Source: a virus (Duplodnaviria; Caudoviricetes). From it: a stretch of 48,345 nucleotides of DNA. Each line of letters opens with the position of its first letter. The first letter of the stretch is position 1. The translations under genes were made by a program, and so were the position numbers. Below, piece after piece: positions 1 through 39,593 of this stretch. The DNA lies in IMG/VR virus record IMGVR_UViG_3300037782_000051, positions 1-48,345 of that record. The stretch is one strand, 5' to 3'. The notes beneath the pieces are model-generated. The model had not been told where the DNA came from. It ran no database searches and saw nothing but the letters and a program-made list of their open reading frames with translations.

Positions 1-8
1 TCCGATCT
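1..8. other. Probable Illumina adapter remnant (TCCGATCT)
   Basis: Equals the 3' end of the TruSeq adapter (...CTCTTCCGATCT). The match to the window end begins exactly at base 9. Confidence 0.75.
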
Positions 9-134
9 CGCATTGGTTAACAGGAGCCTGCAAAACGGCACTATCCGAGTAGGGGATAAAGTGCAAGTTAAAGGCGAGTTGAGACAAACAAAATACGGCT
101 TACAGATTAAAGCAAAATCCATAAGCCGCAAAGC
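9..134 (+). repeat. 126-bp terminal direct repeat, left copy (circular assembly overlap)
   Basis: Identical to 48220-48345. Confidence 0.95.
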
Positions 135-5911: not shown

Positions 5912-6087
5912 AAGACGAAAAATTTGAAATTCGCCATTTGCGCATGGAGATAAAACGCGAAACAGCCTGCGCTCAGCAAGCGGAGGATTGCGGCAAACAT
6001 GAGCTTGCTAAAGCCTATCGGCAGGGGCTGAAGGGTAAGAAAAAGAGGTTGAAGGAATTGGAGGTTAGACGGGGAGGTTGTGTGTAG
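5908..6087 (+). CDS. 59-aa basic hypothetical protein whose stop lies in the first attC-like half-site
   Basis: Manual translation MKDEKFEIRHLRMEIKRE...KELEVRRGGCV*. Confidence 0.6.
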   Translation: MKDEKFEIRHLRMEIKRETACAQQAEDCGKHELAKAYRQGLKGKKKRLKELEVRRGGCV

Positions 6088-6096
6088 CTGTAGTTA
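6073..6096 (+). repeat. Truncated attC-like site (right arm only)
   Basis: GGAGGTTGTGTGTAGCTGTAGTTA is 23/24 identical to 9469-9492. No left arm is present upstream. Confidence 0.8.
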
Positions 6097-6228
6097 TACC
6101 TAGCGAAACCAATAAATGTTCCGGCTGCTGGAGGATGCGGAAGCAGCTAGAGAAACCAATATCGGGCATCCACATTTATTCATCATCGCCTATTCCTTTT
6201 GGCATGGGGCGCTAAAATCTTATTTAAA

Positions 6229-6438
6229 ATGGAAACGACTTACATCATAATCAACCCAAAAACCAATTCTTACTTTGAGGGTTTTTTTGCTGGAAATACC
6301 AACCAGATTACATGGACAGATGATTATTCTGAAGCTGTACATTATTCCTCTGTAGAAGAAATAGAGAACGCAAACTTCTATGTAAAGGGAGATATTCATA
6401 AAGTTGAACATAAAATTAGCGCCCTAGCTAGGGTATAA
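6229..6438 (+). CDS. Cassette 1 cargo (cassette 6093-6439), hypothetical 69 aa
   Basis: ATG after TTTAAA; the stop TAA lies within the TAAC core. Confidence 0.75.
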   Translation: METTYIIINPKTNSYFEGFFAGNTNQITWTDDYSEAVHYSSVEEIENANFYVKGDIHKVEHKISALARV

Positions 6439-6495
6439 CGTACAAGTACTGGCGCTGTGCCGACTGTAAGGAGGTATAGGCGCTAGTACGTTGGT
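6437..6495 (+). repeat. attC-like hairpin 1 (AAC...GGT)
   Basis: GTACTGGCGC/GCGCTAGTAC stem with apical CCGACTGTAAGGAGG. Confidence 0.8.
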
Positions 6496-6625
6496 GTACG
6501 ACGGCTACCAATAGATAGTCGGCTGAGCGACAGTAGGAGCCAGCTAAAGAAACTCTACTCAGGCATCATCTTGTATCAATAGAATTTATTTCAAAGGGCA
6601 GTGCGCCCTTAAAACTATAATTACA

Positions 6626-6874
6626 ATGAATCCTTTTCAACCCTTTAATTACCCTAATCAAAACGACCAATTAAGAAAGAATCAACATCAACAACCCAGA
6701 ACTAAATTTAAGGACATTCAGGTAGGGGACGTCTTTAAACTAGAATGGTCTGGAGGATATACTTTATTTGAAAAAAAATCTAAATCCACGGCAATTGTAT
6801 TAGAATCAGAAATCAAATCTCCTGTTTTTGAGGTTGGAGATATTGAAAATTTCAATCCTAATTCACTTATTTAG
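6626..6874 (+). CDS. Cassette 2 cargo (cassette 6493-6893), hypothetical 82 aa
   Basis: ATG 133 nt after the GGT core; the TAG abuts the inner repeat GGCGCAC. Confidence 0.75.
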   Translation: MNPFQPFNYPNQNDQLRKNQHQQPRTKFKDIQVGDVFKLEWSGGYTLFEKKSKSTAIVLESEIKSPVFEVGDIENFNPNSLI

Positions 6875-6890
6875 GCGCACGCTGTCGTAC

Positions 6891-6954
6891 ACCGTACAGG
6901 GCTACACGCCGTGCTGCTGGGGACTCGGTTGGGGCATGGTGTGTAGCTGTAGTT
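6891..6954 (+). repeat. attC-like hairpin 2 (ACC...GTT)
   Basis: GCTACACGCCGTGC/GCATGGTGTGTAGC stem. Confidence 0.85.
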
Positions 6955-7083
6955 ATGCACCGGCTTAATTCTAATCATACGGCCCTGCGACAATAGGAGC
7001 TGGGCTTAAGAAATTATAATCGGGCAATATTGCCTTTCATTTCAAGGCTCATTCTTCGGGTGCGCCGCTTAAATCAAATTAAA

Positions 7084-7371
7084 ATGACAACATTAGAGCA
7101 AGTTAAAACAGTGCCTATCAATATTTTGCTTGAAAAAGTATGGCCCTGTGGTTTATGCTTAATGCGAGATTGTATGTGGATTGCTTTCTGGGAAAATGAA
7201 GATGAAGAAACGGCCTATACTCAAGATTCAGATTCTTTTGAAGATTTTATTTACAGGGTGATTGCAGATCAAATTGAAAACGGAGATGTTGACCATGAAG
7301 GTTTTAATCACATATCAATTGACTTTGCTATAGCATCAGTTGAGTACAATGAAGCGGCGGCTGGTGCATAA
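7084..7371 (+). CDS. Cassette 3 cargo (cassette 6952-7372), acidic hypothetical 95 aa
   Basis: ATG at 7084 after an A-rich stretch; the stop lies in the TAAC core. Confidence 0.75.
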   Translation: MTTLEQVKTVPINILLEKVWPCGLCLMRDCMWIAFWENEDEETAYTQDSDSFEDFIYRVIADQIENGDVDHEGFNHISIDFAIASVEYNEAAAGA

Positions 7372-7435
7372 CGTGCAGAGCTACCCGCCGTACAGCTTAG
7401 GCCGAGCGTTGGCGTATGGCGGGTAGCGTGTAGTT
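7370..7435 (+). repeat. attC-like hairpin 3 (AAC...GTT)
   Basis: GCTACCCGCCGTAC/GTATGGCGGGTAGC stem. Confidence 0.85.
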
Positions 7436-7567
7436 ATACCTAGCGAAACCAATAAATGTTCCGGCTGCTGGAGGATGCGGAAGCAGCTAGAGAAACCAAT
7501 ACCGGGCATCCATATTTATTCATCATTGCTTAATCCTTTTGGCAGGTGCGGCATAAATTAATCAGAA

Positions 7568-7876
7568 ATGAAATACCCTGAATCAATAATCAAAAAGCTA
7601 GTAATTGCATTTATTGTCATTCTTATATTCAATGCAATTATTTTTTACAGAATGGGGTATCACCAATCAAAGGTTGACATCGCCCACGAATACCCAATCT
7701 TCAATTTGAAAAATGAAGTCTTCAACGATGTTGAGTTTGAAGATGGAATGATATACTTTATGGGCGGTGTCAGCCATAATCACACAGTATACACCTATGA
7801 ATCTGATACATTAATTTTCTTATTCACATATCACCCAATGTCTGGTGTTTTTCTTGAAAAAGAATTGCCGCACTAG
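7568..7876 (+). CDS. Cassette 4 cargo (cassette 7433-7888), N-terminal membrane-anchored protein
   Basis: KKLVIAFIVILIFNAIIFY hydrophobic segment; leader nearly identical to cassette 1. Confidence 0.75.
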   Translation: MKYPESIIKKLVIAFIVILIFNAIIFYRMGYHQSKVDIAHEYPIFNLKNEVFNDVEFEDGMIYFMGGVSHNHTVYTYESDTLIFLFTYHPMSGVFLEKELPH

Positions 7877-7885
7877 CTAGGGTAT

Positions 7886-7942
7886 AACGGACGAGTACTG
7901 GCGCAGGCCTGAGGTACGAAGGCTTGGCGCTAGTATGTTGGT
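7886..7942 (+). repeat. attC-like hairpin 4 (AAC...GGT)
   Basis: GTACTGGCGC/GCGCTAGTAT stem with apical CCTGAGGTACGAAGG; same family as hairpin 1. Confidence 0.82.
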
Positions 7943-8072
7943 GTGTGCAGTTAAACCCTTAATCATAGGGTGAGCGACAGTAGGAGCGAACAAGAACAAA
8001 CCCACAACGGGTATCACAATAATTCTTTCACAGTCTAATCCTCCGGGAGCGGGCGCTTAAAACTTAATTACG

Positions 8073-8342
8073 ATGAAACAAGAATTGAATTTTATGGATG
8101 TTGATCTCGGTCACTTTGATACCGAATCGAAAACTTTTCACCCTAATATAGATAATGTAAAATCAATTGAAGTGATGGGGGAAAACAATTGCAACAATCC
8201 AGAAATTATGGGGTCTATTGAAATTGTATGTTACGATGAAAAATGGGATTGGCCAATTTTCATGTGGGTTAGAGAAGATAAGATAACACTATCAACAAGT
8301 GTATCGTATAGCAACCGCCGAAAAGTAATTTATCTTTCTTAG
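8073..8342 (+). CDS. Cassette 5 cargo (cassette 7940-8360), hypothetical 89 aa
   Basis: ATG 133 nt after the GGT core. Confidence 0.75.
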   Translation: MKQELNFMDVDLGHFDTESKTFHPNIDNVKSIEVMGENNCNNPEIMGSIEIVCYDEKWDWPIFMWVREDKITLSTSVSYSNRRKVIYLS

Positions 8343-8357
8343 CGACCGATTGCACAC

Positions 8358-8417
8358 ACCGGACGGGGCTACCCGGCGTATGGAGCGCAGCGTAATATGA
8401 TCGGGTAGCATAGTGTT
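8358..8417 (+). repeat. attC-like hairpin 5 (ACC...GTT)
   Basis: GCTACCCGG/TCGGGTAGC stem. Confidence 0.78.
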
Positions 8418-8538
8418 GGGTGCAGGCGTACAAATAATAGTGCGGCGAGTGACGATAGGAACGAGTGACAAGAAACCCTAAACTGGTATTTATTAATTCC
8501 TTTCTTTACTCTTAATCGGGGTAGAGCAGGGAGCGAAG

Positions 8539-8626
8539 AACGGTTGGGTGTATGGTGTGTAGCTGACACCACTAACTTTCGGCTAAAGAACTAATGTTTA
8601 ATCTGCTATACACTATATATTGTGTT
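8539..8626 (+). repeat. Nested longer attC-like hairpin of a different family inside cassette 6
   Basis: AAC...GTGTATGGTGTGTAGC / GCTATACACTATATAT...GTT; all non-Watson-Crick pairs in this stem are G-T. Confidence 0.72.
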
Positions 8627-8648
8627 AGCCACCGTAAATACTAAGATT

Positions 8649-8879
8649 ATGATTTTAGAAACAGGATTCAAACTACCACGAGATAAAGGCGTGATTCGAT
8701 TTGGTGATGTACTTAAAAGTAGTATGACACATGATGTAGTAGTAATGTTCCATCAAGGACAGAAGAAACCTATCGTAAAAGTGATAGATGAAGATATTTG
8801 GTTTGAACTTGAAGAGTTTCTTGACTCATGTGGTTCACGTCTTGAAATTAGCCACAACATTAATTATTATTGTGGCTAA
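8649..8879 (+). CDS. Nested cassette cargo (GTTAGCCAC 8624 ... GTGGCTAAT 8880) within cassette 6 (8415-8950); weakly YopX-like
   Basis: ATG at 8649. IRFGDVL...LEISHNI loosely recalls the YopX C-terminal pattern. Confidence 0.65.
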   Translation: MILETGFKLPRDKGVIRFGDVLKSSMTHDVVVMFHQGQKKPIVKVIDEDIWFELEEFLDSCGSRLEISHNINYYCG

Positions 8880-8921
8880 TACTTATCCATGTTCAACATT
8901 TCATTGAATATAGATATAGTT
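8878..8921 (+). repeat. Degenerate nested attC-like hairpin (AAT...GTT)
   Basis: TATCCATGTTCAA/TTGAATATAGATA imperfect stem. Confidence 0.55.
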
Positions 8922-8947
8922 CTTCCCTCCCTGCGGAGCTTGCACCC

Positions 8948-9003
8948 AACGTACAGGGCTACACGCAGGCGCGAGGCACGAGTGCTTGTGTGTAGCTGTA
9001 GTT
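8948..9003 (+). repeat. attC-like hairpin 6 (AAC...GTT)
   Basis: TACAGG-GCTACACGCAGGC/GCTTGTGTGTAGC-TGTA with apical GCGAGGCACGAGT. Confidence 0.85.
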
Positions 9004-9133
9004 ATGCACCGTTTTAACCAGCAGTAGACGAGCCGTAGTGTGCGAAGGCGGGTGACTAATTAATCGGGTAACAAACAATTATTATTTATTCATTTTTATC
9101 TGGCGGCTTAATCGTCAGCAAAACACAACAATC

Positions 9134-9409
9134 ATGCAAACATCAAAAAGAACTGAAATTCATGTAAACCAGCGAATGATTGAAATTCTATCTAAAGGCG
9201 ATTATATCCCATCGCTAGAGGAAGAATTTCAGATCAATTATACCACACGCGGGGTACTTCGCAATGATACCTTAAAGGTTGTAAAAATTGAAGATGAAAC
9301 ACACACAAGTGAACCAACTCAATTTCTACCTGAGATAGAAACCGTTGTAACAAAAATTCACTGTGAAGTTGTAAAGAACCATCATAAACAAAGATTTTCA
9401 TCATATTGA
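9134..9409 (+). CDS. Cassette 7 cargo (cassette 9001-9431), hypothetical 91 aa
   Basis: ATG 133 nt after the GTT core; bracketed by TGGCGGCT/AGCCGCCA. Confidence 0.75.
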   Translation: MQTSKRTEIHVNQRMIEILSKGDYIPSLEEEFQINYTTRGVLRNDTLKVVKIEDETHTSEPTQFLPEIETVVTKIHCEVVKNHHKQRFSSY

Positions 9410-9428
9410 TAGCCGCCAAATGGTGCAT

Positions 9429-9491
9429 AACGTACAGGGCTACACGCAGCCTGTTCAGCCCTCGCGTTGGAGGTTGCGTGTAGCTGTAGTT
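9429..9491 (+). repeat. attC-like hairpin 7 (AAC...GTT)
   Basis: GCTACACGCAGCCT/AGGTTGCGTGTAGC stem. Confidence 0.85.
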
Positions 9492-9616
9492 AGGTACTGC
9501 GAAACAACTAAATGGTCAAGGCGGCGATAGCAAGCCGGGTGACTATAACAACAGGCATCAAACCAGTATTCATCATTCATTTTCTTCGGGCGACTGCCAG
9601 CGTAAATAATAATCGA

Positions 9617-10252
9617 ATGCAAAACAAATTCTTAAATATTGATTGTATGGACGAGCGGGAAGGGCTGCCGTCTTATCCTGATAATTTCTTTGATCTTGCT
9701 ATTGTAGATCCACCTTATGGGTTAGATATAGGTAATTCTCCTAGAATTGTAACAGATAAGGGTATCAAGGGCAAGTCTTGGGATTCAATGATACCTGATA
9801 GAGAATACTTTGAACAGTTAAATCGGGTATCTAAAAATCAAATTATTTGGGGCTGGAATTATTTTGTCCCATTTTTATCTTCTTGTCAATGCTATATCGT
9901 TTGGTACAAGCATCAACCTGTCAAATCTTTTGCAGATTGTGAAAGTGCTTATACATCGTTCAAAAGACCCGCTGTTGTTTTTGACTTTAGATACTATGGG
10001 AATATTGAAGGCGGGACAAAAGCTAGTTTGAAAATTCATCCTACTCAAAAACCAATAAAGCTGTATCAAAGGACTTTAACGGAATTTGCCAAACCGGGCG
10101 ACCTTATTCTTGATACTCATGTTGGTTCTGCATCATCATTAATCGCTTTTGAAAGTATGGGATTCAATTACCATGCTTTTGAAATTGATGAAGATTATTA
10201 TAAGGCAGCCCTGGAGCGCATGCGGGCGGGCATTCAAACAGCAATTTTTTAG
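9617..10252 (+). CDS. Cassette 8 cargo (cassette 9489-10273): N6-adenine/N4-cytosine DNA methyltransferase, beta-class motif order
   Basis: Catalytic DPPY, then HPTQKP, then SAM-binding ILDTHVGSAS and FEIDEDYY. Confidence 0.9.
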   Translation: MQNKFLNIDCMDEREGLPSYPDNFFDLAIVDPPYGLDIGNSPRIVTDKGIKGKSWDSMIPDREYFEQLNRVSKNQIIWGWNYFVPFLSSCQCYIVWYKHQPVKSFADCESAYTSFKRPAVVFDFRYYGNIEGGTKASLKIHPTQKPIKLYQRTLTEFAKPGDLILDTHVGSASSLIAFESMGFNYHAFEIDEDYYKAALERMRAGIQTAIF

Positions 10253-10270
10253 CTGGCAGTAGTAGTACCT

Positions 10271-10335
10271 AACGGACAAAGCTACACGCTGCCACGCCCA
10301 GCCCTCGGTTCGCCGGTAGCGTGTAGCGTGATGGT
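10271..10335 (+). repeat. attC-like hairpin 8 (AAC...GGT)
   Basis: GCTACACGCTGCC/GGTAGCGTGTAGC stem. Confidence 0.85.
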
Positions 10336-10482
10336 GTGTGATGTGATATTCAAATAACTGAGCTGCGACGATAGGAGCGCGGCTGTATTAATACCCCCGA
10401 GCCTGTGGAGGCCGGGGGAGAATGAACTAAATTTTTTCATGGCCTAACCCTACTCGGGCAGGCAGGCGTAAAATAATTTTAA

Positions 10483-10671
10483 ATGAAAGATCAAAAGAAA
10501 AGTGTTGAAAATAAACCTAAAAGAAAACCTTGGAATTACGGGAAAAGAAAACCCATTGTAGATGAAATGGGGAATAAATGGTGTAATTGCATAGAACCAA
10601 AACTAACTTCTAATTCAGGTGTAGGTGGTCAAGCATATTGTTTAAAATGTCATTCAAATTGGTATCATTAG
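10483..10671 (+). CDS. Cassette 9 cargo (cassette 10333-10690), small basic Zn-ribbon-like protein
   Basis: CNC...CLKCH cysteine pairs. Confidence 0.65.
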   Translation: MKDQKKSVENKPKRKPWNYGKRKPIVDEMGNKWCNCIEPKLTSNSGVGGQAYCLKCHSNWYH

Positions 10672-10687
10672 CCTGCCCATATCACAC

Positions 10688-10743
10688 ACCGGACGGGGCT
10701 ACACGCAGGGCTGAGGTACGAAGCCTTGAGTGTAGCTGTAGTT
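10688..10743 (+). repeat. attC-like hairpin 9 (ACC...GTT)
   Basis: GCTACACGCAGGGC/GCCTTGAGTGTAGC stem with apical CTGAGGTACGAAG. Confidence 0.85.
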
Positions 10744-10891
10744 ACATGGCGTTTTAACCTATAATAGTCAAGCAGCGACAGTAGGAGCGCGGGTGACTTT
10801 TCTACTCAGCTACAAACCCTTTCCAATCCTGTCTATTCCGTGTGCGGCCCTAAACTAAATATACTTTGTGTATAAAATAATTGATATAAAA

Positions 10892-10924
10892 CTTGCGCGT
10901 GTGGTATACTTATTGTATATTGCA
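10892..10924 (+). promoter_or_regulatory. Promoter inside cassette 10 (CTTG-N20-TATATTGCA)
   Basis: Same spacing as 5311 and 32051; followed by an A-rich leader. Confidence 0.65.
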
Positions 10925-10953
10925 GCATCATTAACAACAAAACAATATAAATC

Positions 10954-11184
10954 ATGAAAAAGTACCTAGTAAATACCTTATTGAATATCATTCACGAGGT
11001 ATCTGAAATTGGAGGTGAAGTTGATCGCACAGATTTCATTCGTGCTGATGGAAGCAAAGGATGCGTTTTTGGTAAAGAATGGAAAACCATGCACGCAGAT
11101 AATGAGGAAGATATAAAAAATCACCTCCGAAAGCACAGAGAGTATTATTGCAGGATTAACGGATATAGCACTTTAGAACTTTAA
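10954..11184 (+). CDS. Cassette 10 (10741-11414) cargo gene 1, hypothetical 76 aa
   Basis: ATG after the promoter and A-rich leader. Confidence 0.75.
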   Translation: MKKYLVNTLLNIIHEVSEIGGEVDRTDFIRADGSKGCVFGKEWKTMHADNEEDIKNHLRKHREYYCRINGYSTLEL

Positions 11185-11227
11185 CCCAAGCCCCCGCGAT
11201 AACATCAACGGGGCTAAATCTTTTATT

Positions 11228-11413
11228 GTGGATAAAATCATTTCTATCTACCTCGAAAACCAAACCGAGAAAGCAAATCGGCTTGGTAAACACCGTCAAA
11301 CATTAGTGGCTTGGAAACGCAACCCTTCTCAGGCTAGCTTGCAATTGATCGAAGAAGACCTTAAAGCGCTTCTTCTTCTAATACAAGAATACAAGACCGC
11401 AAATGCCATGTAA
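11228..11413 (+). CDS. Cassette 10 cargo gene 2, HTH-like 61 aa
   Basis: QTEKANRLGKHRQTLVAWKRNP resembles an HTH; GTG start; the stop lies in the TAAC core. Confidence 0.6.
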   Translation: MDKIISIYLENQTEKANRLGKHRQTLVAWKRNPSQASLQLIEEDLKALLLLIQEYKTANAM

Positions 11414-11426
11414 CTACATAACACCC

Positions 11427-11468
11427 GCAACCCCGTATGTAAACGCTTGTAAACGACTACGGGGTTGC
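11427..11468. repeat. Perfect 11-bp inverted repeat closing the array
   Basis: GCAACCCCGTA...TACGGGGTTGC, 12 nt after the last AAC core. Confidence 0.7.
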
Positions 11469-12152: not shown

Positions 12153-12995
12153 ATGAAAACAGTAACATCAATATCAGGCGGAAAAACATCTGCTTATCTT
12201 GCTACTCATTACCCTACTGATTACAACGTTTTCTCTTTGGTTAGAATAGAGGACAAAAGTGCTGCGTTCCCTGATAAGAAAATTAGGCAAATAGTAGAGG
12301 ATAAAATCCAAAAGCAATTTATTGCTACAGCTGAAGATGATACTATCATTTACACAATTCTTGATCTTGAGCAGCATATCGGCAGAAAGATACATTGGGT
12401 ATCAGGCGACACCTTTGACAGCGTTATCGAACAAAAAGGCGGTTATCTTCCTAACAAGATGCAACGTTTTTGCACTTCAGAAATGAAGTTAAAGCCTATT
12501 TTTTATTGGTGGGCAGAAACAATAAGCGAACCAATAAAAATGCAAATTGGCTACCGGGCTAATGAGCAAAGAAGAGCAAACACTATGCTATCTAAGTGCA
12601 ATGAAGACGGATTGCTCGAATATAAAGCAACATTTGAAAAGCACTCAAATGGGAACAATAAATGGGAGCAAATACCATGGCAAAAACCATCATTCCCGCT
12701 TATTGATAACGCTGTTTTTCGTGACCAGATAGAAAACTATTGGACTGGTCAAACCGTCCGTTTTGCTGATTACAATAACTGTGTCGGCTGCTTTCATCGA
12801 AACCCCTTATTTCTTCGTAAGATGTGGGATAAACATCCAGCTAAGATGGATTGGTTTGAATCAAAAGAAACAGGGCCGAAAAACCCAAATTGGAGATCTG
12901 ATATATCTTATTCACAAATTAAGCAGCACCGCCCTCAATTTGAATTAGATTTTTCAGATTTTTCAGATTGCGATTCTGGATACTGCGGAATGTAA
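12153..12995 (+). CDS. PAPS-reductase-like (PP-loop) protein with Cys clusters
   Basis: SISGGKTS PP-loop, RFCTSEMK, IGYRANE, NCVGCF and terminal CDSGYCG. Confidence 0.8.
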   Translation: MKTVTSISGGKTSAYLATHYPTDYNVFSLVRIEDKSAAFPDKKIRQIVEDKIQKQFIATAEDDTIIYTILDLEQHIGRKIHWVSGDTFDSVIEQKGGYLPNKMQRFCTSEMKLKPIFYWWAETISEPIKMQIGYRANEQRRANTMLSKCNEDGLLEYKATFEKHSNGNNKWEQIPWQKPSFPLIDNAVFRDQIENYWTGQTVRFADYNNCVGCFHRNPLFLRKMWDKHPAKMDWFESKETGPKNPNWRSDISYSQIKQHRPQFELDFSDFSDCDSGYCGM

Positions 12996-14708: not shown

Positions 14709-16289
14709 TTAATTTTTCACTGCCTTGCGCTCGATAGTATTCTGCGCGAAAGTGACAGTATTGATTTGTGAAAATGTCCTCTTTATGTTCGACACTGTCT
14801 TGCGCCGTGGTGCGTCTAGCTGCGAACGCTGCCCGGCAACTTCAGTGATTATTGTCTCAATCTGTACATCGTACCCTGCACGCTTCATCAGCATCTCATA
14901 AAAGTGCCGCACCCAAAACGTCATATCGAGCTTGTCGTCTGTAGCATTTAGCACAAAAGCCCGGTTGGTGAAGAACTCAGCAGTAGCAAGTGTAATCGCC
15001 TCAACAGCATCTTCAGCATACAGCTTGCTATCATAGCGCACTGTTAGCCTAACTTCATCGGTATAAAACTTTCCTGAGCCAAACGGCTTCCACATCACAG
15101 GATAGTTGTCTGATAACTTGACAATGATAGTGCGCTTGTCCTTTTCCGGCTGATCTGGTTCGTCCGGTTCATCTGGTTCGTCATCATTCGGCGTATCGGG
15201 GTTGCCGTTATGTTCATCGCTGTAGCTTTCCGGGTTGACGTCCTTAAGCGCTGTCAGGATATTAACGCCATATCCATACTTTTCATCCCATCCTTGCGGG
15301 CCTAAGCCCACCGCATTAGCACGCAGGCAGTTGCTCACCTGCTTAGCTGTAGCGTTCGATGTAGCCCCTAGAATAGCAGCTATTGCTGCCTGTGTAGGCG
15401 TTGCCATCGAAGTGCCTGACAGTTCAGCGTAACCACCGTTAAGCCATGCGCCGTACACCCGGACGCCTGCCCCTGACATATAGAGCTGTGGCCCGTAGTT
15501 GCTAAAGCCTGCAATAGTGCCTGAGTTGTCAATTGCTCCGATAGCGTGCGCACTTGTCCCGTTTGCCGGAGTGCCGATGAAGTTCTGCCCGTTGTTACCA
15601 GCAGCTGCAAGAACAAGCACGCCAGCATCTTCAGCTTTCTCAATAGCGCTGTTGAATTGCTCATTAACGCTTTGGCTGCCTAGCGAAAAATTAAAGATGA
15701 CAAACCAACCATCATCAATCAGCTTTTTTGCTTCTGCTGTGCCTGTCTCGATGCCTGTAACGATTTGGCTTGTATAGCCATAGCCCTCCTTTCGCAAGAC
15801 TTTGTAGAAGATCAGCTTCAGGTTATCGCCTAAGATAGATGCAGGCCCAAGCTTGTAGTTAAACTCATGCTTGCCTGCAATGCAGGTGCCTACGTGTATG
15901 CCATGCCCATGCTTTGCGCTTGCAGGCTCTCCTGTAAATATTTTATCTTTCTCAGGCCACGCGAAATCCTCAAGGCTCTTATGCCCTGCTTCGCCTTCAG
16001 TATCGAAGACGAACACCGCCACCTTGCGCTTGATACGCTCCTTAATCCACGCCTCGTTCTGAGCCACGCGGTAGTAATCGTACGCCCAATTGCCGTTCGC
16101 GTCAGCGGTGGCAAGGCTTGGTATCATCGGTATCTGCTCGATCGGGTCAAGGAAGACCTTTCCCGGCCCTTGATTCTCCTGAATGAAGCGCTCAATACGC
16201 TTGTACTCATTTGAATACTCATCAGGCACAGGCTGTGCGAAGAGCGTAAAAGTAACTGCTGTTAGTAGCAGTATCAGTAGATTCTTCAT
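14709..16289 (-). CDS. Subtilisin-like S8 serine protease with signal peptide
   Basis: VFVFDT, HGHGIHVG, AAAGN and GTSMATP catalytic motifs; N-terminal MKNLLILLLTAVTFTLFA|Q. Confidence 0.9.
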   Translation of the reverse strand: MKNLLILLLTAVTFTLFAQPVPDEYSNEYKRIERFIQENQGPGKVFLDPIEQIPMIPSLATADANGNWAYDYYRVAQNEAWIKERIKRKVAVFVFDTEGEAGHKSLEDFAWPEKDKIFTGEPASAKHGHGIHVGTCIAGKHEFNYKLGPASILGDNLKLIFYKVLRKEGYGYTSQIVTGIETGTAEAKKLIDDGWFVIFNFSLGSQSVNEQFNSAIEKAEDAGVLVLAAAGNNGQNFIGTPANGTSAHAIGAIDNSGTIAGFSNYGPQLYMSGAGVRVYGAWLNGGYAELSGTSMATPTQAAIAAILGATSNATAKQVSNCLRANAVGLGPQGWDEKYGYGVNILTALKDVNPESYSDEHNGNPDTPNDDEPDEPDEPDQPEKDKRTIIVKLSDNYPVMWKPFGSGKFYTDEVRLTVRYDSKLYAEDAVEAITLATAEFFTNRAFVLNATDDKLDMTFWVRHFYEMLMKRAGYDVQIETIITEVAGQRSQLDAPRRKTVSNIKRTFSQINTVTFAQNTIERKAVKN

Positions 16290-17963: not shown

Positions 17964-18857
17964 TTATGCAGGCCCCCCGTCTGTGATTGTCCAATTATAT
18001 GTATTTTCTAGGCTCGTCCGCGCCGCTTCTGCTGCGCCTCCTGCCGTGTACTTGCTATTGCCTCCACTGAAGTTTAGCCCTGTGTTTGGGGCTTGGGCTT
18101 CGTAGTTGATTAGTAGGGCATCGTATCTGGAAGTTGGCAGACTAGTCCCTGTTAAAAAGTTACTAAAGTTTGTGACGCTGGAAATATTTAAGTTTTCAAT
18201 TCCAGGCGCATCAATTAAGCTAGGTAGCAACCCAAGTGCATTATCTATTCTTGTTACATTTGAAAAATCATTATCAAATATAATGCTCGGTATACCTTGA
18301 GAGCTAAAAAAAGAAGCTAAAAAAACATTTGAGCTTGACGTGTCAAATAAAGAAAAATCAAGAGTATAAACAATCCCTGTAGCTTGGAATATTCTTTGAA
18401 AATCTGTAACATTAGATGTTTTTGCGTTAGATTGACTAATTACCTTAGTCAAATTGTTACATCCATAAAAAGCTCTTGCCATAGTGCTCCAGACAATATC
18501 CCCCCAATTTCTAATTTCAATAAGCTTAGATTTGTCTCCACCATTATCAAACTGAATCCTGTTAAAGCCATTCGTAGCCGCCGGGAAAACCCTTAACTCA
18601 TAGATACCTACCCCCGCTGCAATCGTGATCGTAGCTGCATCACTAAGCCCTGTAATGGTTTCTTGCAAGGTACTGCCTGTACTATCCCACACCTCAACAT
18701 CATAGTCGCCAAGCGCACCTGTAAATTGGAATTGGTCGCTGTTACTCACGCCTGCATTAGCAGTATTAACAAGGATGCGGAAATCCACAGAAGATGTAAT
18801 TAATCCTCCTAATACGCTGTTTTTTTTATGCAAACCTAAACCTAATCCTAAGCTCAT
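17964..18857 (-). CDS. BspA/DUF285-like repeat protein (possible adhesin or tail accessory)
   Basis: WGDIVWSTMARAFYGCNNL, TSNVTDF, FDTSS and NISSVTNFSNFL repeats; ends WTITDGG. Confidence 0.7.
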   Translation of the reverse strand: MSLGLGLGLHKKNSVLGGLITSSVDFRILVNTANAGVSNSDQFQFTGALGDYDVEVWDSTGSTLQETITGLSDAATITIAAGVGIYELRVFPAATNGFNRIQFDNGGDKSKLIEIRNWGDIVWSTMARAFYGCNNLTKVISQSNAKTSNVTDFQRIFQATGIVYTLDFSLFDTSSSNVFLASFFSSQGIPSIIFDNDFSNVTRIDNALGLLPSLIDAPGIENLNISSVTNFSNFLTGTSLPTSRYDALLINYEAQAPNTGLNFSGGNSKYTAGGAAEAARTSLENTYNWTITDGGPA

Positions 18858-29228: not shown

Positions 29229-31936
29229 ACGTAGATTGTCCTTTTATTGCCCCGTTTGCGTATCATCCTGCCCTTTGAATCGGTATAGTATTGCTCTGAG
29301 CCGTTCTGCCGGATTGCTGACAGGTGCCCCTCCATGCGCTTGGTGTCGAAATTGATGCTAGGGGACAGGATAGGTATTTGCTGTGCTGCTTGCCCCATGT
29401 AAGAGAACTGCCGCTCAAACTGCTGATTGTTTAGGCTGTCAATAATAGCGGGCAGCACTGACCTGTACCGGCTTGTCGCTTTGCGGTTGATAACCGCCAT
29501 TGCCTCCCCGCGTTCTGCCCGCATCTGTGAGCCGTGCCCGTCTGTACCAATAAAGATGTCGTTACCGCTTTCGTGGCTACCGCCGTAGTCCAAGAACTCC
29601 AAACCGCCATCCCGGAAGATTTTAGCGGCTTGAAAGGCTTTGATTTTAGCCAGCGCAAACGAGCCGAACATAGTGCCCACTGCTGCGATATTGAGCGGGA
29701 AAGGAACGTCTTTGAGTATCTTCGACGCTGCTGTTATCAGGCTGCTTGCCTGCGTTACGGTATCAATAGCAAGCTGTGCCTTTTGCGCCCGTTCGCGCTG
29801 CTTAAGTGCTTCCTGCTGCTGCTGCTCTGCTGCTGCTAATTCATCCTGTCTTGCCTGGATATTCGCCGCCCGTCCTTGTTCGGCTGCTTCAATTTCTGCC
29901 TGTAATGCCCTTTTCGCTGCATCAGTTTCGCGGCTTGCAGCTTGCACTGCCGCATCAGCCGCTTGTATCCTCGCCTGAGTAAGCTCATTCAGTTTGCCTT
30001 TTGCGAAATTAACGCCTTTGTTCAATTCTTCCTGTTCCTTATCGCCAAAGCTAAGCGCTGAGAACAGCCCGCCTTCGCTTACCGCTGTGAAGTCAAATTG
30101 CAGGTCTTCTTCATCTACGATGTCGCCGATTTTCATCGGCTTTATCTCGCCTCGTGCTGCCTCTGCCGACTCATTGACCGCTGCCGCTAGGTCCTGTTCT
30201 GCTTCTTTCAAGTCTTGAACTGCCAGCCTGCGCTCTTTGATTATCTCAATAAGGCGTGTCTTGTTTTTTTCCGACAAGTCAATAGCCTGAATCTCTTGCA
30301 CAATCCTTGTAGCGTCTGCTTCTGCAACAAGCCTGTCTATATCAATTTGCACTGCTGCCTGAGCTTGCAAATTTTTAACTTGTTCTCTGAATGACAACTC
30401 TGATAGCCTCACTGTTTCTTTGAGCAGTCGCGCTTTCTCTGTTAGTGTGGTTTTGTCGTTTGATATAATTCGTTCATTGATCGTTTTTTGGTTGTCAAAC
30501 AAATCAATGAGTATATCCAGATTGATTTCCCGCTCATCAGAAATAAGTTCTCTTCGCGCCTTCGCGTTTTCTTGCACCGTCATTGTGTAGTTGCGGTCAG
30601 CCTCAGCGGCAGCGACAAAAGCATCTACCTGTCTGTCTTTAAGGTCTTCAATTTCCCGCTTTTGTGCCTTTCTTAATGCAATTTCCTGATTGATTACATT
30701 AAGGTTATTACGTGCAATTTGCTGCTCTATTGCTGCTCGCTGCTCAGTCGCCCTGAACAGTTCATCACTTGCTTCTTTTCTCGCTTCAAAGGATAGCGTT
30801 TGATCGTCTACGATGAAGCGCAGCTTTTCTTCATTGGTAATTACTGATTGCAGTGATTTTGTCAGCTCTCTATTGTTGTCGCGGGCTGATTGTATAGCTT
30901 GTGCTAACTTATCAAATTGTGCGGCTGTTTCTTCTACAGCGTCTGCTAATTCCTTTCGCTCTTGAGCATTAAGGCCTGTAAATAATTCACCAATACCGTC
31001 TGCTGCCTCCCTTGCACCTTCATTAATTAGTTGAAGGTCCCTTGTGAATATACCTCGTATGAATTTACCCAACCCCGCAAAGCCTCTTGAAACAGCTTCT
31101 AGCCGTTCGCCTATTTCCGTTACTAATGCAGACCCAAAATCCTTCATTGTTTGTATTGGGTCAGTAAATAAATCTTCAAGGAAGCCCGCAAGGCTGTCAA
31201 CTTTTTGGACTAATAACCCAAACACGCCCTGCAAAACAAAACTTGCCCTACGCAATAGCTTAGCACCGTTTTCGCTTTGCCTGAATGCTTCAAATAAAGT
31301 GCTTACAGCTCCAATAATAAGCGTCAATGCTGCAAGTAGGGGGGTTTTGCTTACGACGTCCATTGCAGCCCCAAAAGCCTTAGTGCCTGAAATGGCATCT
31401 ACGATTGCTTCTTTATAATTACCTACATTTAAAGATGTTTTACCTGTCTCCTCTTGCAGGCGCTTCATCTCTTTATAGATTTCTTTCGTCTTGGTAACAA
31501 GCCCCTCACTCGCTTCTGCCGCCTTGCGCTGCGCCTGTGTCATCTCATTAAGGCGCTGCTTGTTCAGGCTGTATTGCGCAGATAGAGCGTTGTAGCTGCC
31601 CTTTGCCGCATTGGCTGCCTTGATTTCTAGTGTTGCCTGCCGGGTGTTTTTCTTGCGCTCTTCACGCAGCTTGATGAGTTCTTTCTCCTGTTCGCGGTAT
31701 TCTCTGGTAAGCTTCTCTTTTTCCTTAGCAAGCCGGTCGGCTGCTTTGGTGGCTTCTGTAATCTGCTTGCGCCCATCCTCCTGCGCAACATTAGCAGTCT
31801 TGATGCTGTCGGCGTACTTCTTAGCAACCTTTTGCACCTGCTCTATCTGTTGCCCCAAACGGCCTAACTCTTCGATCGCGCGGGTTATTGCACCATCGTC
31901 AACATATATATCTGAAGCCTTAATCGGATTTGCCAT
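29225..31936 (-). CDS. Tail tape measure protein
   Basis: ~900 aa Ala/Glu/Gln-rich coiled coil with hydrophobic patches and GSYNALSAQY...NVGNY motif; downstream of the frameshifted chaperone pair. Confidence 0.88.
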   Translation of the reverse strand: MANPIKASDIYVDDGAITRAIEELGRLGQQIEQVQKVAKKYADSIKTANVAQEDGRKQITEATKAADRLAKEKEKLTREYREQEKELIKLREERKKNTRQATLEIKAANAAKGSYNALSAQYSLNKQRLNEMTQAQRKAAEASEGLVTKTKEIYKEMKRLQEETGKTSLNVGNYKEAIVDAISGTKAFGAAMDVVSKTPLLAALTLIIGAVSTLFEAFRQSENGAKLLRRASFVLQGVFGLLVQKVDSLAGFLEDLFTDPIQTMKDFGSALVTEIGERLEAVSRGFAGLGKFIRGIFTRDLQLINEGAREAADGIGELFTGLNAQERKELADAVEETAAQFDKLAQAIQSARDNNRELTKSLQSVITNEEKLRFIVDDQTLSFEARKEASDELFRATEQRAAIEQQIARNNLNVINQEIALRKAQKREIEDLKDRQVDAFVAAAEADRNYTMTVQENAKARRELISDEREINLDILIDLFDNQKTINERIISNDKTTLTEKARLLKETVRLSELSFREQVKNLQAQAAVQIDIDRLVAEADATRIVQEIQAIDLSEKNKTRLIEIIKERRLAVQDLKEAEQDLAAAVNESAEAARGEIKPMKIGDIVDEEDLQFDFTAVSEGGLFSALSFGDKEQEELNKGVNFAKGKLNELTQARIQAADAAVQAASRETDAAKRALQAEIEAAEQGRAANIQARQDELAAAEQQQQEALKQRERAQKAQLAIDTVTQASSLITAASKILKDVPFPLNIAAVGTMFGSFALAKIKAFQAAKIFRDGGLEFLDYGGSHESGNDIFIGTDGHGSQMRAERGEAMAVINRKATSRYRSVLPAIIDSLNNQQFERQFSYMGQAAQQIPILSPSINFDTKRMEGHLSAIRQNGSEQYYTDSKGRMIRKRGNKRTIYV

Positions 31937-32050
31937 GTTGCCTATTGATAGGGGCAAGCATAGGTGAGTGGTGGCAAGATACGAAAATACACGGAATGAT
32001 GCTGTTAAATGTTAAAATTTGCGTTTCTGTCAAAAATAATTAGGGTTTTA

Positions 32051-32083
32051 CTTGACACAAAGACAAAATAGCAGTAGATTGCA
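32051..32083 (+). promoter_or_regulatory. Promoter CTTG-N20-TAGATTGCA of the inverted three-gene island
   Basis: Same architecture as 5311 and 10892. A divergent TATCTTGC for the tape measure lies at 31974-31981 on the - strand. Confidence 0.65.
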
Positions 32084-32113
32084 GCATAATTAAAAAACAA
32101 AACAATAACAATC

Positions 32114-32587
32114 ATGGAGATCAAAGTAACAAATAGCAAAACATACAAAGGACGCAAAGAGAACTGGACAGAACAAAAAACTCGTTCTTTTCGATTAAAG
32201 TCAGATTTAGTTTGCGTTCACAAATCAGAACGTAAGATCAAGTCTTTTCAGTCTGGAGTAACGACCTGTGTATATGATGAATTTGATTCCAAAGAACAAC
32301 TGGAATCAATGACTTACGAACAAGCAAAAAAACACAATATAACTCGTGACTATACTCATATAGTACGCCCTGATAATAATCCTGATTACGTTTACACAAT
32401 GATTCTTCCTGCTGGGACTTATGTCGAAGAGTATGACAACGAATACCGATTCGAAATGTCTAGCGAAATTAAAATCAAATTAATTGGAACAATGGGTCGG
32501 GTTAGAATTACAGACGAAGAGCTACATCCTTATGAGTGTTCAGTATATGGAGGGAAGTGGATTAATGTATTCACAAAAAAAATATAA
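32114..32587 (+). CDS. Hypothetical protein (moron-like island gene 1)
   Basis: AT-rich ORF opposite to the structural genes, with its own promoter. Confidence 0.75.
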   Translation: MEIKVTNSKTYKGRKENWTEQKTRSFRLKSDLVCVHKSERKIKSFQSGVTTCVYDEFDSKEQLESMTYEQAKKHNITRDYTHIVRPDNNPDYVYTMILPAGTYVEEYDNEYRFEMSSEIKIKLIGTMGRVRITDEELHPYECSVYGGKWINVFTKKI

Positions 32588-37012: not shown

Positions 37013-38059
37013 TTAGCTCGTTGCGATGTCGAACTTGATGATCGGCGTCGGGATGGTCGTTGCATCGCTGTTGTAGGGCGTCAGGAACGCGATGTCAATA
37101 GCGAAGTCGAACGCCTGCTCATAAGTCCGGGTCAGTCCTGTAGTGCCAGAGTGCAGGGAGCTTGCATCTACTGCTTTTTCGTAGTAGTAGCTGCCGAATG
37201 TCAGGTCAAGGCCCGGCACAAGCACAGTGCCCCACTCATGCCCATCTGCAAGGGTAGTGCCTGCAAGTGAATCCGGCTCAACGCGGGTAACAATACCGAG
37301 CTGCCCGTCTGCTACCGCAAATCCAGTGGCACGCTTACCGTCAGCATTGCTGATGCCGTTGGTGAAGTGCATGTTCTTGTTCATGAATTGCAGCGTGCGG
37401 TCCTGCTGATTGAACTCGCCAAAGCCATCCATGCGCTTCAGGATCGCGTGAAAGCCTGGGTTGCCGATCACGTCCATCGTCATACCGTAGTAGTCGTTGG
37501 ACATCATCATCGGGTCAAGGTCGGAAAGGATGTAGCTCTCCTTGAGGCTCGGTGCAGTCTCGCTGACTACGTTGCCGGAGAATACATGCCCGCCGGTCAC
37601 ATCGCCGATCACCTGCGTTTTCTGCGCTTCTAACTGAGTGACTGCCAGCCCTTCAAGCGTTGACATCATCTTGACAATCATCGCCTCGAACTTCTTGTTG
37701 AAGTCCTGCTGATAGGTCACATCGTTGTTGAAGTGCTGCTGCGGGTACATCTTGAAACCATACGCCAAGGTGGTGAAGGTCAGGGTGTACAGCGCACTGG
37801 TGTTCTCATCAGCAGGGATAACCAAAGGGCGTGTGCTGCGGATGGTCACGTCTTTGTACTGAATAGCTGGGAGCTTGACGGTATTACCGAAGCTTCGCCG
37901 TACCTTTTCGATTAGGTCTGCAGTCAACCAGCTTGAGGGCGCATCCCCTTGGCGCTTGAAGGTGTCAAATGCACCTGCGCGGGTTACGCGAAACTCGTTC
38001 TTGTCAAATTCTGGCGCTTGTGCACGGAACTCTAACGCCAGCGTGTTCACTAAACTCAT
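37013..38059 (-). CDS. Major capsid protein
   Basis: 348 aa directly downstream of the scaffold-like gene. The N-terminus recalls Bacteroides siphovirus capsid proteins (from memory, unverified). Confidence 0.75.
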   Translation of the reverse strand: MSLVNTLALEFRAQAPEFDKNEFRVTRAGAFDTFKRQGDAPSSWLTADLIEKVRRSFGNTVKLPAIQYKDVTIRSTRPLVIPADENTSALYTLTFTTLAYGFKMYPQQHFNNDVTYQQDFNKKFEAMIVKMMSTLEGLAVTQLEAQKTQVIGDVTGGHVFSGNVVSETAPSLKESYILSDLDPMMMSNDYYGMTMDVIGNPGFHAILKRMDGFGEFNQQDRTLQFMNKNMHFTNGISNADGKRATGFAVADGQLGIVTRVEPDSLAGTTLADGHEWGTVLVPGLDLTFGSYYYEKAVDASSLHSGTTGLTRTYEQAFDFAIDIAFLTPYNSDATTIPTPIIKFDIATS

Positions 38060-38082
38060 GGTTTAAGTTTTTGTGGCTTGGC

Positions 38083-38098
38083 GCTGGCTCGTTCGCAC
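38083..38098 (-). promoter_or_regulatory. 16-nt motif GTGCGAACGAGCCAGC upstream of the capsid gene
   Basis: Identical copy at 42150-42165. Confidence 0.7.
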
Positions 38099-38120
38099 CA
38101 AAAAGATTACTGAAAATTGT

Positions 38121-39089: not shown

Positions 39090-39104
39090 TGGTTTTGGTT
39101 TTGG

Positions 39105-39593
39105 TTATGCTTTGCGCTCAGCGCCAAAAATATTCATCTCTTCAAGTGGCTTGATACCTTTCGGCAGGTGCAGCACCTTATGGATTACATACCCTTGCGC
39201 TACGTGGTAGGTGGCAAAGGTCGTCCAGCTTTTTGCATCGAACTTCTGCACTCGCGGCTTGCTGTCTTTCTTCGGTGGCCGCCCATCGTTGTAGGTAGGC
39301 ACCTCAATCAAGGCGTGCACGAATTTCTCTTCGCCCTTTGGTACTTCGTAATTGATCTGGCTCAGGTCCGCTTCGTGCGCATCTACCTTGTTGCTCAGCA
39401 GGTCCTCAAGCAAGGTGTCGTCATCGCCGAACGGCAACGGCTCATCCTGCGCCCGGAGTGCTTCAATGTCCTTTTCTACTGTTGCAGGCTTGACGCTGTA
39501 TTCATCGCACACGTGGGCAATGATGTCTTCGTCTGCCATGCCTGTCAATAGCAGCTCGTCAACCCTATTAAAACGTTCATCTCGTTTACTCAT
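39105..39593 (-). CDS. Hypothetical head-module protein
   Basis: Lies between portal and scaffold. Confidence 0.7.
   Translation of the reverse strand: MSKRDERFNRVDELLLTGMADEDIIAHVCDEYSVKPATVEKDIEALRAQDEPLPFGDDDTLLEDLLSNKVDAHEADLSQINYEVPKGEEKFVHALIEVPTYNDGRPPKKDSKPRVQKFDAKSWTTFATYHVAQGYVIHKVLHLPKGIKPLEEMNIFGAERKA

What the first reader, a model, noticed from the sequence alone, without database searches (positions are those of the whole stretch)
6493..10788. Constant-length (~130 nt) cassette leader with a positionally fixed mini-hairpin
Seen: core-to-ATG distances are 136, 133, 132, 135, 133, 133 and 128 nt (c1-5, c7, c8), and 150 nt in c9, which has an extra hairpin, despite divergent sequence. 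The motif GCGAC(A/G)(G/A)TAGGAGC starts 32-35 nt after the core in c2 (6527), c3 (6987), c5 (7974), c9 (10365) and c10 (10775). A compensatory variant, GTGACGATAGGAAC, occurs in c6 (8449). Canonical cassettes usually have very short 5' regions. Inference: the leader is a structured functional module such as a protein-binding site, ssDNA priming signal or ncRNA.
Basis: partly seen in the sequence, partly recalled or inferred. Interest (0 to 1): 0.75.

Follow-up and report, generated by a model that had tools for sequence, protein, structure and literature searches.

The report
Reusable folded frame for phage cassettes
In this phage of Bacteroidota, each swappable gene sits in a reusable frame whose ~130-base leader is complementary to the DNA just after the gene and carries a small conserved hairpin; the frame likely folds as single-stranded DNA to move genes, and the same frame holds unrelated genes joined at one spot, which may help show how new gene cassettes are made.

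Summary
Observation confirmed and extended. The window is a complete Bacteroidota siphophage with ten integron-like cassettes and no detected recombinase. The leader is the 5' half of a reusable cassette frame. The reported motif is one version of a 12-nt cap (A·G mismatch, one Watson-Crick pair, NNTR loop) present in all ten leaders at about +37; its closing pair is Watson-Crick in 19 of 19 aligned leaders, with four pair types. The leader's 3' end pairs with the cassette's own trailer across the gene (cognate -22.6 versus -13.4 kcal/mol, 0 of 100,000 permutations). In related phages, one frame type carries unrelated genes joined at the tip of that helix. The recombination-site hairpin moves with the downstream gene and folds on the sense strand, the reverse of integrons. 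Best reading (0.5): a single-stranded-DNA scaffold for cassette movement and gene loading; an RNA role is not excluded. Energy models support the mini-hairpin only weakly. This scan already noted the wider Bacteroidota cassette system, including extended end pairing, on other DNA. I found no note or paper on this fixed-length arm.

The parts
6093..11414 (+). Array of ten integron-like cassettes (c1-c10), all genes on +
6093..6228 (+). c1 leader: end arm 6093-6102, 12-nt cap 6130-6141, clamp arm 6206-6215 (partner 6416-6425)
6440..6492 (+). att-like hairpin heading c2. The others are 6894-6951, 7373-7432, 7889-7939, 8361-8414, 8951-9000, 9432-9488, 10274-10332 and 10691-10740
6493..6625 (+). 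c2 leader: cap 6528-6539, clamp arm 6601-6607 (partner 6874-6880), end arm partner 6884-6893
6952..7083 (+). c3 leader: cap 6988-6999, clamp arm 7063-7070 (partner 7352-7359)
7433..7567 (+). c4 leader (c1 type, 92% identical): cap 7470-7481, clamp arm 7545-7553 (partner 7866-7874), with three compensatory double changes relative to c1
7940..8072 (+). c5 leader: cap 7975-7986; weak, imperfect clamp 8050-8060 with 8339-8348
8415..8541 (+). c6 leader: cap 8450-8461, 16-bp clamp arm 8526-8541 (partner 8919-8934) whose tip is itself an att-like site
8542..8879 (+). Short-leader cassette nested in c6: hairpin 8542-8623, core 8624, ATG 8649 (25 nt later), end 8872-8879 complementary to its start. It is followed by a hairpin fixed in the c6 frame (8880-8918)
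   Evidence: sequence; different inner genes in L007, L023, L025
9001..9133 (+). c7 leader: cap 9035-9046, clamp arm 9101-9108 (partner 9411-9418)
9489..9616 (+). c8 leader: cap variant 9522-9533, clamp arm 9593-9601 (partner 10252-10260); payload is a DNA methyltransferase (9617-10252)
10333..10482 (+). c9 leader with an extra hairpin: cap 10366-10377, clamp arm 10456-10463 (partner 10671-10678)
10741..10849 (+). c10 leader: cap 10776-10787, weak clamp 10843-10849 with 11395-11401; payload has a promoter-like stretch, a variable ORF and a small conserved ORF
11415..11441 (+). Fixed right flank (likely docking site), joined directly after the last cassette's AAC/ACC
   Evidence: 8 different cassette ends join this flank at the same point in 12 loci

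Best explanation
The leader is the 5' half of a reusable cassette frame: its 3' end is complementary to the cassette's own trailer, it carries a covarying GA-capped mini-hairpin at a fixed place, and the frame likely folds on the sense strand of single-stranded DNA to bring the cassette's two ends together for excision and re-insertion by a recombinase that is likely supplied by the host. Shown: the mobile unit is hairpin + core + leader + gene + trailer. The first 10 nt after the core match the cassette's own end; a second helix (the clamp, about 9 bp) encloses the gene; one frame type carries unrelated genes whose borders fall at the clamp tip. Predicted: in the excised circle the clamp, the end arm and the att-like hairpin stack into one rod, and a ~95-nt leader arm with the mini-hairpin loops out of it. 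Inferred: the mini-hairpin is a folding nucleus or a protein docking site, the fixed length keeps it at a set distance from the crossover, and new genes are loaded at the clamp tip.
For: End arms match 10/10 in 20 of 27 complete units and at least 7/10 in all 27 (the core was chosen as the best match, but the R1 profile starts at the same base in all of them). Clamp: cognate duplex -22.6 versus -13.4±4.2 kcal/mol, best partner in 9 of 17 leader types, 0 of 100,000 permutations. Of 55 segment pairs only clamp/trailer (z 10.0) and the mini-hairpin arms (z 4.5) pair cognately. c1 and c4 differ by three compensatory double changes in the clamp. Mini-hairpin: 83% of cells paired versus 45% in shuffles, covariation score 0.83 versus 0.20, slid controls at most 0.21; the closing pair is Watson-Crick in 19 of 19 with four types; position +37.5±1.4. 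Gene exchange: shared sequence stops at the clamp tip in c1/L007 (+124, last 23 nt), c8/L035 (+118, last 26) and the L023 pair (+114, last 22); the c1 type holds 4 ORFs with no blastp hit among them. A public-run contig joins 7069 to 7352 with 216 other letters between. Strand and linkage: att hairpins fold better on + in 24 of 25, with G·T pairs 68 versus 10; the hairpin's 3' end is linked to the downstream core (p<0.0001), not the upstream end (p 0.25). The same cap lies at the centre of 6 of 25 att hairpins. In other phage cassettes it lies after a 20-30 bp end clamp (L046, L048, L051, L052) or in the trailer (L047, L050), so it belongs to the cassette fold and is not tied to a start codon. 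Payload-free frames are predicted to close the clamp in 15 of 17 (DNA) and 17 of 17 (RNA).
Against: The folding strand is also the mRNA strand, so no result separates DNA from RNA. The clamp's strand bias is weak (12 of 17). The clamp is weak or absent in c5, c10 and L023_3932. In the later-found locus L054 it was best or tied in 2 of 4 units and failed in 1. Standard energy models support the mini-hairpin poorly: mean z -1.0 (RNA) and -0.4 (DNA); outer pair probability above 0.5 in only 5-7 of 17; RNAalifold found no consensus on the MAFFT alignment. The leader types are related (55% mean identity), so permutation values overstate independence. No recombinase was found in the phage, the host is unknown, and no excised circle was observed. 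Short-leader cassettes of the same system exist (nested in c6), so the long arm is not needed for mobility as such.
Confidence: 0.5

Rival explanations
1. The leader works in the mRNA: the cap is a protein-binding operator or antitermination site, and the clamp pairs the 5' and 3' untranslated ends to control processing, stability or translation of each gene in one long early transcript.
For: All structures favour the sense strand. Tandem G·A pairs and ANYA-like loops occur in RNA operators (recalled). The +77..+100 stretch is pyrimidine-rich (T 0.48, G 0.07). Untranslated stretches lower downstream expression in class 1 integrons (PMC11511950, passages), so a remedy would be useful.
Against: The same cap also occurs at att-hairpin tips and in trailers. 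The loop's third base is always T, so it is not GNRA. No Rfam family matches. An RNA role does not by itself explain why the clamp continues the recombination-site arm.
Confidence: 0.2
2. The arm is a single-strand priming signal, like phage G4 ori or RSF1010 ssiA, that lets primase make the second strand of an excised circle or of the exposed strand during replication.
For: The size (~100 nt) is similar to such signals (recalled). Mini-hairpins occur at G4 ori and ssiA and bind SSB poorly (PMC13037366, passages). A CT or GT dinucleotide lies at the hairpin's 3' foot in 16 of 17 types (read by eye). Landmarks are spaced 30-33 nt apart.
Against: The cap does not match the GCGNNAGC/GCGNAGC consensus. 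The foot triplet varies (CTG, GTG, CTA, CTT). Integron-type insertion uses the single strand and is resolved by replication (PMC8946536, passages), so priming is not needed.
Confidence: 0.1
3. The leader is an inherited relic of one ancestral cassette; its length is constant because indels are rare, and its pairings are kept by template-switch correction of quasi-palindromes, not by selection.
For: The full leader was found only in this phage clade. The array's left border cuts into leaders at varied places in relatives. Template switching can perfect inverted repeats (recalled).
Against: 17 types average 55% identity yet keep the cap at +37.5±1.4 and the invariant non-paired A, T and G. The att hairpins beside them vary from 39 to 117 nt, so indels do occur there.
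Confidence: 0.1
4. The leader is a cassette-borne promoter module, like the 101-bp qacE segment fused to several integron genes.
For: Long cassette 5' regions often carry promoters (PMC8876359, passages). Position-fixed boxes exist at about +70 and +85.
Against: The Bacteroidota -7 motif TAnnTTTG (recalled) is absent from the + strand of 22 of 22 leaders, while it occurs in 2 payloads after the clamp. A promoter does not explain the pairing with the trailer.
Confidence: 0.05
5. The frame is a retron-like template: the end arms act as a1/a2, the G at +11 as the branching G, the cap as the RT-binding stem and the clamp as the msd stem with the gene in its loop, copied by a host reverse transcriptase.
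For: The layout resembles a retron (recalled). G follows the 5' arm in 10 of 10 window leaders and 4 of 5 L054 leaders.
Against: No RT in the phage. The G can be read as a G·T extension of the end arm. The copied strand would be antisense and lack the att hairpin, whereas the sense strand is the one that folds.
Confidence: 0.05

Closest known systems
Integron cassettes and CALINs, including the phage CALINs of Qi et al. 2023 (PMC9892861; Polaribacter phage P12002L)
   Same: Single genes bounded by palindromic sites, each cassette's ends complementary, array order and content shuffled, a fixed docking flank, no integrase in the phage. P12002L has sites of similar layout and the same cap in a leader and at a hairpin tip.
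   Different: The hairpin lies 5' of the gene and moves with it; the sense strand folds; 8 of 30 cores read GGT; the 5' spacer is 2-3 nt longer than the 3' one in 26 of 30 junctions. A second helix encloses the gene and a ~95-nt arm of fixed length is inserted between the two helices.
qacE 101-bp pseudo-cassette and other long cassette 5' UTRs (cmlA, qnrVC1; PMC8876359)
   Same: One ~100-nt leader found in front of unrelated cassette genes.
   Different: Those act as promoters or attenuators. Here no Bacteroidota -7 motif was found, there are 17 diverged covarying types, and the leader pairs with the trailer.
DNA mini-hairpins at phage G4 ori, RSF1010 ssiA and N4 promoters (PMC13037366)
   Same: Small GA-rich hairpin caps in a likely single-stranded context.
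   Different: The cap is an A·G mismatch plus one Watson-Crick pair plus an NNTR loop, not GCGN(N)AGC; no priming or promoter function is shown.
Elements that integrate as folded single-stranded DNA through Xer (CTX phage; PMC3442271, abstract start only)
   Same: A folded single strand would present a paired arm of 10-11 bp next to the crossover, without an element-encoded recombinase.
   Different: Arrayed, exchangeable cassettes with variable arms; the recombinase here is unidentified.

Membership tests
Integron cassette array / CALIN | Genes separated by palindromic sites, with each cassette's start complementary to its own end | tested here: met
Integron cassette array / CALIN | Invariant AAC/GTT core triplets | tested here: not met
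   8 of 30 junctions have GGT cores; triplets are complementary in array form in only 20 of 30
Integron cassette array / CALIN | attC at the 3' end of its gene, with the antisense (bottom) strand as the folded substrate | tested here: not met
   hairpin linked to the downstream core; sense strand folds better in 24 of 25
Integron cassette array / CALIN | Canonical unpaired central spacer and extrahelical bases | tested here: inconclusive
   2-3 nt spacer asymmetry in 26 of 30; no attC covariance model was run
Integron (complete) | IntI tyrosine recombinase beside the array | tested here: not met
   PF00589: 0 matches in the genome, controls 14 of 14
Integron cassette array / CALIN | Sites recombined by a tyrosine recombinase as single-stranded DNA | not testable with these tools
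   needs a recombination assay
Single-strand initiation signal (G4 ori, ssiA) | GCGN(N)AGC-type mini-hairpin | tested here: not met
   cap sequences
Single-strand initiation signal (G4 ori, ssiA) | Fixed primase triplet at the 3' foot of the hairpin | tested here: inconclusive
   CTG, GTG, CTA or CTT in 16 of 17 types, none in c5
Single-strand initiation signal (G4 ori, ssiA) | Primes complementary-strand synthesis | not testable with these tools
   needs a priming assay
Cassette-borne promoter module | Host promoter motif inside the leader | tested here: not met
   exact TAnnTTTG in 0 of 22 leaders on +, 1 of 22 on -; other sigma factors not tested
Known structured RNA (Rfam 15) | Match to a curated family | tested here: not met
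   0 at gathering score; one chance hit, E 0.52, in a coding region
Retron ncRNA | Terminal inverted repeats with a G after the 5' arm | tested here: met
Retron ncRNA | Cognate reverse transcriptase gene | tested here: not met
   PF00078: 0 matches; host not known

The most novel reading that the evidence does not exclude
The frame is a cassette-making device: an empty ~200-nt folded element (trailer + att hairpin + leader) whose paired ends accept a new gene at the clamp tip, from about 11-25 nt before the start codon to the stop codon, with the fixed-length arm and GA cap recruiting the enzyme that does the loading. It would be a natural series of one frame with many unrelated genes, with nucleotide-level junctions, in which the making of gene cassettes can be tested directly.
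Probability: 0.25. Interest if true: 0.87.

Novelty: new variant of a known kind. Interest (0 to 1): 0.63.

Why it matters
How new gene cassettes are created is stated to be unknown (Cury et al. 2016, PMC4889954, passage). Here one frame type carries up to four unrelated genes with borders at the tip of a helix that joins leader and trailer, and one frame type carries a whole second cassette at that tip. This names a place and a structure to mutate. It also shows a phage using a fast gene-shuffling array with no detected recombinase of its own; payloads include DNA methyltransferases. The cap is shared with cassettes of unrelated Bacteroidota phages, so it is a candidate binding site for the system's enzyme.

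Tried and rejected
Rfam: nothing. Further helices inside the leader: none passed correction (one anchor, in c8, was mis-picked). Host arrays: the genome contigs pattern gave 13 single hits, none with a cassette context in the printed flanks. In 301 genomes of the family of G001 there were 18 matches with about as many control matches; the 10 read were not hairpins. The leader profile matched 0 of 151 genomes, with only 23 candidates scored per genome and no positive control. The cap pattern matched 0 of 132 genomes of the order of G004. The host stays unknown and these blanks do not show absence. Viral scans: searches found nothing; one search gave 28 hits in GC-rich contigs, none matching the leader profile. 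Named phages share only methyltransferase coding sequence or chance words with the array. No tyrosine recombinase, RT or Y1 transposase family in the genome. The sigma-70 scan shows no common position in the leaders. No RNA holder was listed, and the laid runs were contigs, so expression and circles could not be examined. The Atlas look-up of the small c10 ORF gave only unnamed or partly HTH clusters. Five partial units without a core were dropped (32 to 27). Of the 7 hits, 5 were read; L049 is the same contig as L007 and L053 was not read. Paper searches that found no description of this leader: (open-access library only; supplements not opened, so the attC lists of PMC9892861 were not seen).


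Full report
Context. The window is a complete 48-kb phage record with terminase, portal, tail, DnaB and amidase genes. Its portal is 39-43% identical to those of the 20 listed of 75 matching phages, mostly of Bacteroides, Parabacteroides, Croceibacter and Flavobacterium, so the host is likely in Bacteroidota. No tyrosine recombinase, reverse transcriptase or Y1 transposase family was detected. Between 6093 and 11414 lie ten small cassettes separated by 50-60-nt hairpins.

Distances, motif positions and the c6 compensatory change are as reported. In relatives, 19 of 32 complete or near-complete units have an ORF of at least 50 aa starting at +100 to +160. Of these 19, 15 start at +126 to +136, c9 at +150, and three at +105 or +110 from an in-frame ATG inside the leader. 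The hairpins beside them range from 39 to 117 nt. The other 13 units carry nested or longer payload heads.

The cassettes are mobile. Two viral loci, 15 metagenome loci and a later locus, L054, are close relatives with different arrays at the same place. Each cassette's first 10 nt match the reverse complement of its own last 10 nt (10/10 in 8 of 10 window cassettes, 8/10 in c1 and c4; 4-8 of 10 against the upstream neighbour's end). Across loci this is 10/10 in 20 of 27 units. The hairpin's 3' end is linked to the downstream core and not to the upstream end, and eight different cassette ends join one fixed right flank directly after AAC/ACC in 12 loci. The hairpins fold better on the sense strand (24 of 25; G·T pairs 68 versus 10). 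So the unit is hairpin, core, leader, gene, trailer. In integrons the site lies at the gene's 3' end and the bottom strand recombines (PMC8946536 and PMC11511950, passages). The crossover in the AAC/ACC triplet and the docking role of the right flank are inferred.

The mini-hairpin is real and more general than the reported motif. The 27 units fall into 17 leader types at 80% identity (mean 55% between types). Anchoring on an A-N-NNTR-N-G pattern that imposes no pairing gave one site per leader at +37.5±1.4; c8 had to be anchored by hand. On 19 in-register segments (c8 left out, two L054 types added), the closing pair is Watson-Crick in 19 of 19 (CG 11, GC 5, AT 2, TA 1) and so is the next stem pair; the covariation score is 0.83 against 0.20 in shuffles and at most 0.21 in slid controls. 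A, T and G of the cap are invariant. Against this: RNAalifold found nothing on the plain MAFFT alignment, single-sequence z-scores are weak, and the outer pair has probability above 0.5 in only 5-7 of 17 folded frames. I attribute part of that to G·A pairs being poorly modelled (inference). The types are related, so the shuffles overstate significance.

The cap is a shared part of Bacteroidota phage cassettes. A GA-stem-loop-GA lies at the centre of 6 of 25 att hairpins here. Polaribacter phage P12002L, whose CALIN was described by Qi et al. 2023 (PMC9892861; part 2 of the text and passages), has the c6-like cap at a hairpin tip and in a leader. All 5 viral hits that I read lie in cassette rows: three in leaders, two in trailers. 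In L046, L048, L051 and L052 the cassette ends pair for 20-30 bp almost without a break and the cap follows.

The main new feature is the clamp. The leader's last GC-rich block pairs with the sequence just after the stop codon of the same cassette: -22.6 kcal/mol against -13.4±4.2 for foreign trailers, best partner in 9 of 17 types, 0 of 100,000 permutations; mean 9.4 bp against 6.2. It is the top of 55 segment pairs (z 10.0), followed only by the mini-hairpin arms. c1 and c4 share 92% of their leader but differ by three compensatory double changes in this helix. It is weak in c5, c10 and L023_3932. In L054, found after the model was set, the cap closed correctly in 4 of 4 anchored units, and the clamp was best or tied in 2 of 4, third-ranked class in one and absent in one; only two of the five L054 units are new types. 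On the 3' side the clamp partner lies 0-6 nt from the end arm (c5 excepted), so the long leader amounts to a ~95-nt arm inserted between two helices that are nearly continuous in the other phages. Folding the payload-free frame predicts one rod of clamp, end arm and att hairpin (clamp closed in 15 of 17 with DNA and 17 of 17 with RNA parameters).

Genes are exchanged at the clamp tip. Shared sequence between same-type frames ends at the tip on both sides in c1/L007, c8/L035 and the L023 pair. The c1 type carries four ORFs with no blastp hit among them; the c6 type three; the c10 type four first ORFs; the c8 type two related methyltransferases and one unrelated protein. In the c6 type the tip is itself an att-like site holding a short-leader cassette (core to ATG 25 nt), so short leaders also work in this system. 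Public-run contigs show further exchanges, such as 7069 joined to 7352 with 216 other letters between. Some swaps could come from ordinary recombination between similar frames (c4 may be one). Unrelated genes inside identical clamp arms need a joining event at the tip (inference).

How it likely works. When the sense strand is exposed, the frame folds, a recombinase from the host acts at the att site, and the unit leaves as a single-stranded circle whose own ends form a perfect arm extended by the clamp; it re-enters at the right flank. The arm with its cap is likely a folding or protein-docking accessory at a fixed distance from the crossover (0.5). Because the folded strand is also the mRNA strand, an RNA role remains (0.2), then priming (0.1), relic (0.1), promoter (0.05) and retron-like template (0.05). 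The Bacteroidota -7 motif (recalled) is missing from 22 of 22 leaders on + but present in two payloads. Mini-hairpins at G4 ori and ssiA (PMC13037366, passages) are the nearest biochemical analogy, but the cap does not match their consensus. A Xer-like recombinase for this system is claimed in earlier AI notes of this scan; I did not test it.

Novelty. Phage CALINs are published, long cassette leaders are known (PMC8876359, passages), and this scan noted the wider system many times (209 notes hold the search words), including extended end pairing. I found no note and no paper on a fixed-length leader arm with a covarying cap and gene exchange at a clamp tip. The full leader was found only in this phage clade. 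It works like an integron cassette but fails several defining features, so I file it as a new variant of a known kind. Interest 0.63, because it gives a testable handle on cassette creation, which PMC4889954 calls unknown (passage). PMC8618304 was seen as passages only; PMC3442271 as an abstract start only.

Noticed in passing
window 8542-8918: A complete short-leader cassette is nested at the clamp tip of c6, followed by a hairpin fixed in the frame; relatives carry other inner genes (L007, L023, L025, L054).
   Followed up: partly
window 6050-6092; L006, L007, L021, L028, L030, L054: The array's left border is not fixed: the upstream gene joins the first cassette at different points (inside the att hairpin or the leader's mini-hairpin), as if old cassettes erode from the left while new ones enter at the right.
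   Followed up: partly
window 12153-12995; L023:1890-2897; L054:5847-6856: The PAPS-reductase-like gene lies outside the array in the window, without a frame, but is a cassette payload in two relatives.
   Followed up: no
window 10850-11413: c10-type frames keep a promoter-like stretch and a small ORF with weak HTH-like Atlas neighbours while the ORF between them changes in every relative: a second exchange point inside the payload.
   Followed up: partly
window 11427-11468: A conserved hairpin lies 12 nt right of the docking point, just before the amidase gene; in L023 the flank carries the same 9-mer as the att-hairpin arm.
   Followed up: no
window 9512-9616: An in-frame ATG in the c8 leader could add 35 residues to the methyltransferase; it is not in frame in the L035 copy by my count.
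   Followed up: no
window 1-121 and 48225-48345: The record ends repeat about 120 nt of its start, consistent with a circular assembly although it is classed as linear.
   Followed up: no
window 14709-16289 and 17964-18857 (- strand): A subtilase-family protease and a weak DUF285 match lie in the late region.
   Followed up: no
L046 (NC_028924) 29248-32126 and 37305-39480; L047-L052: Rows of methyltransferase cassettes with the same site layout on the sense strand and long end clamps; the first unit of L023 resembles the leader of P12002L gp38.
   Followed up: partly
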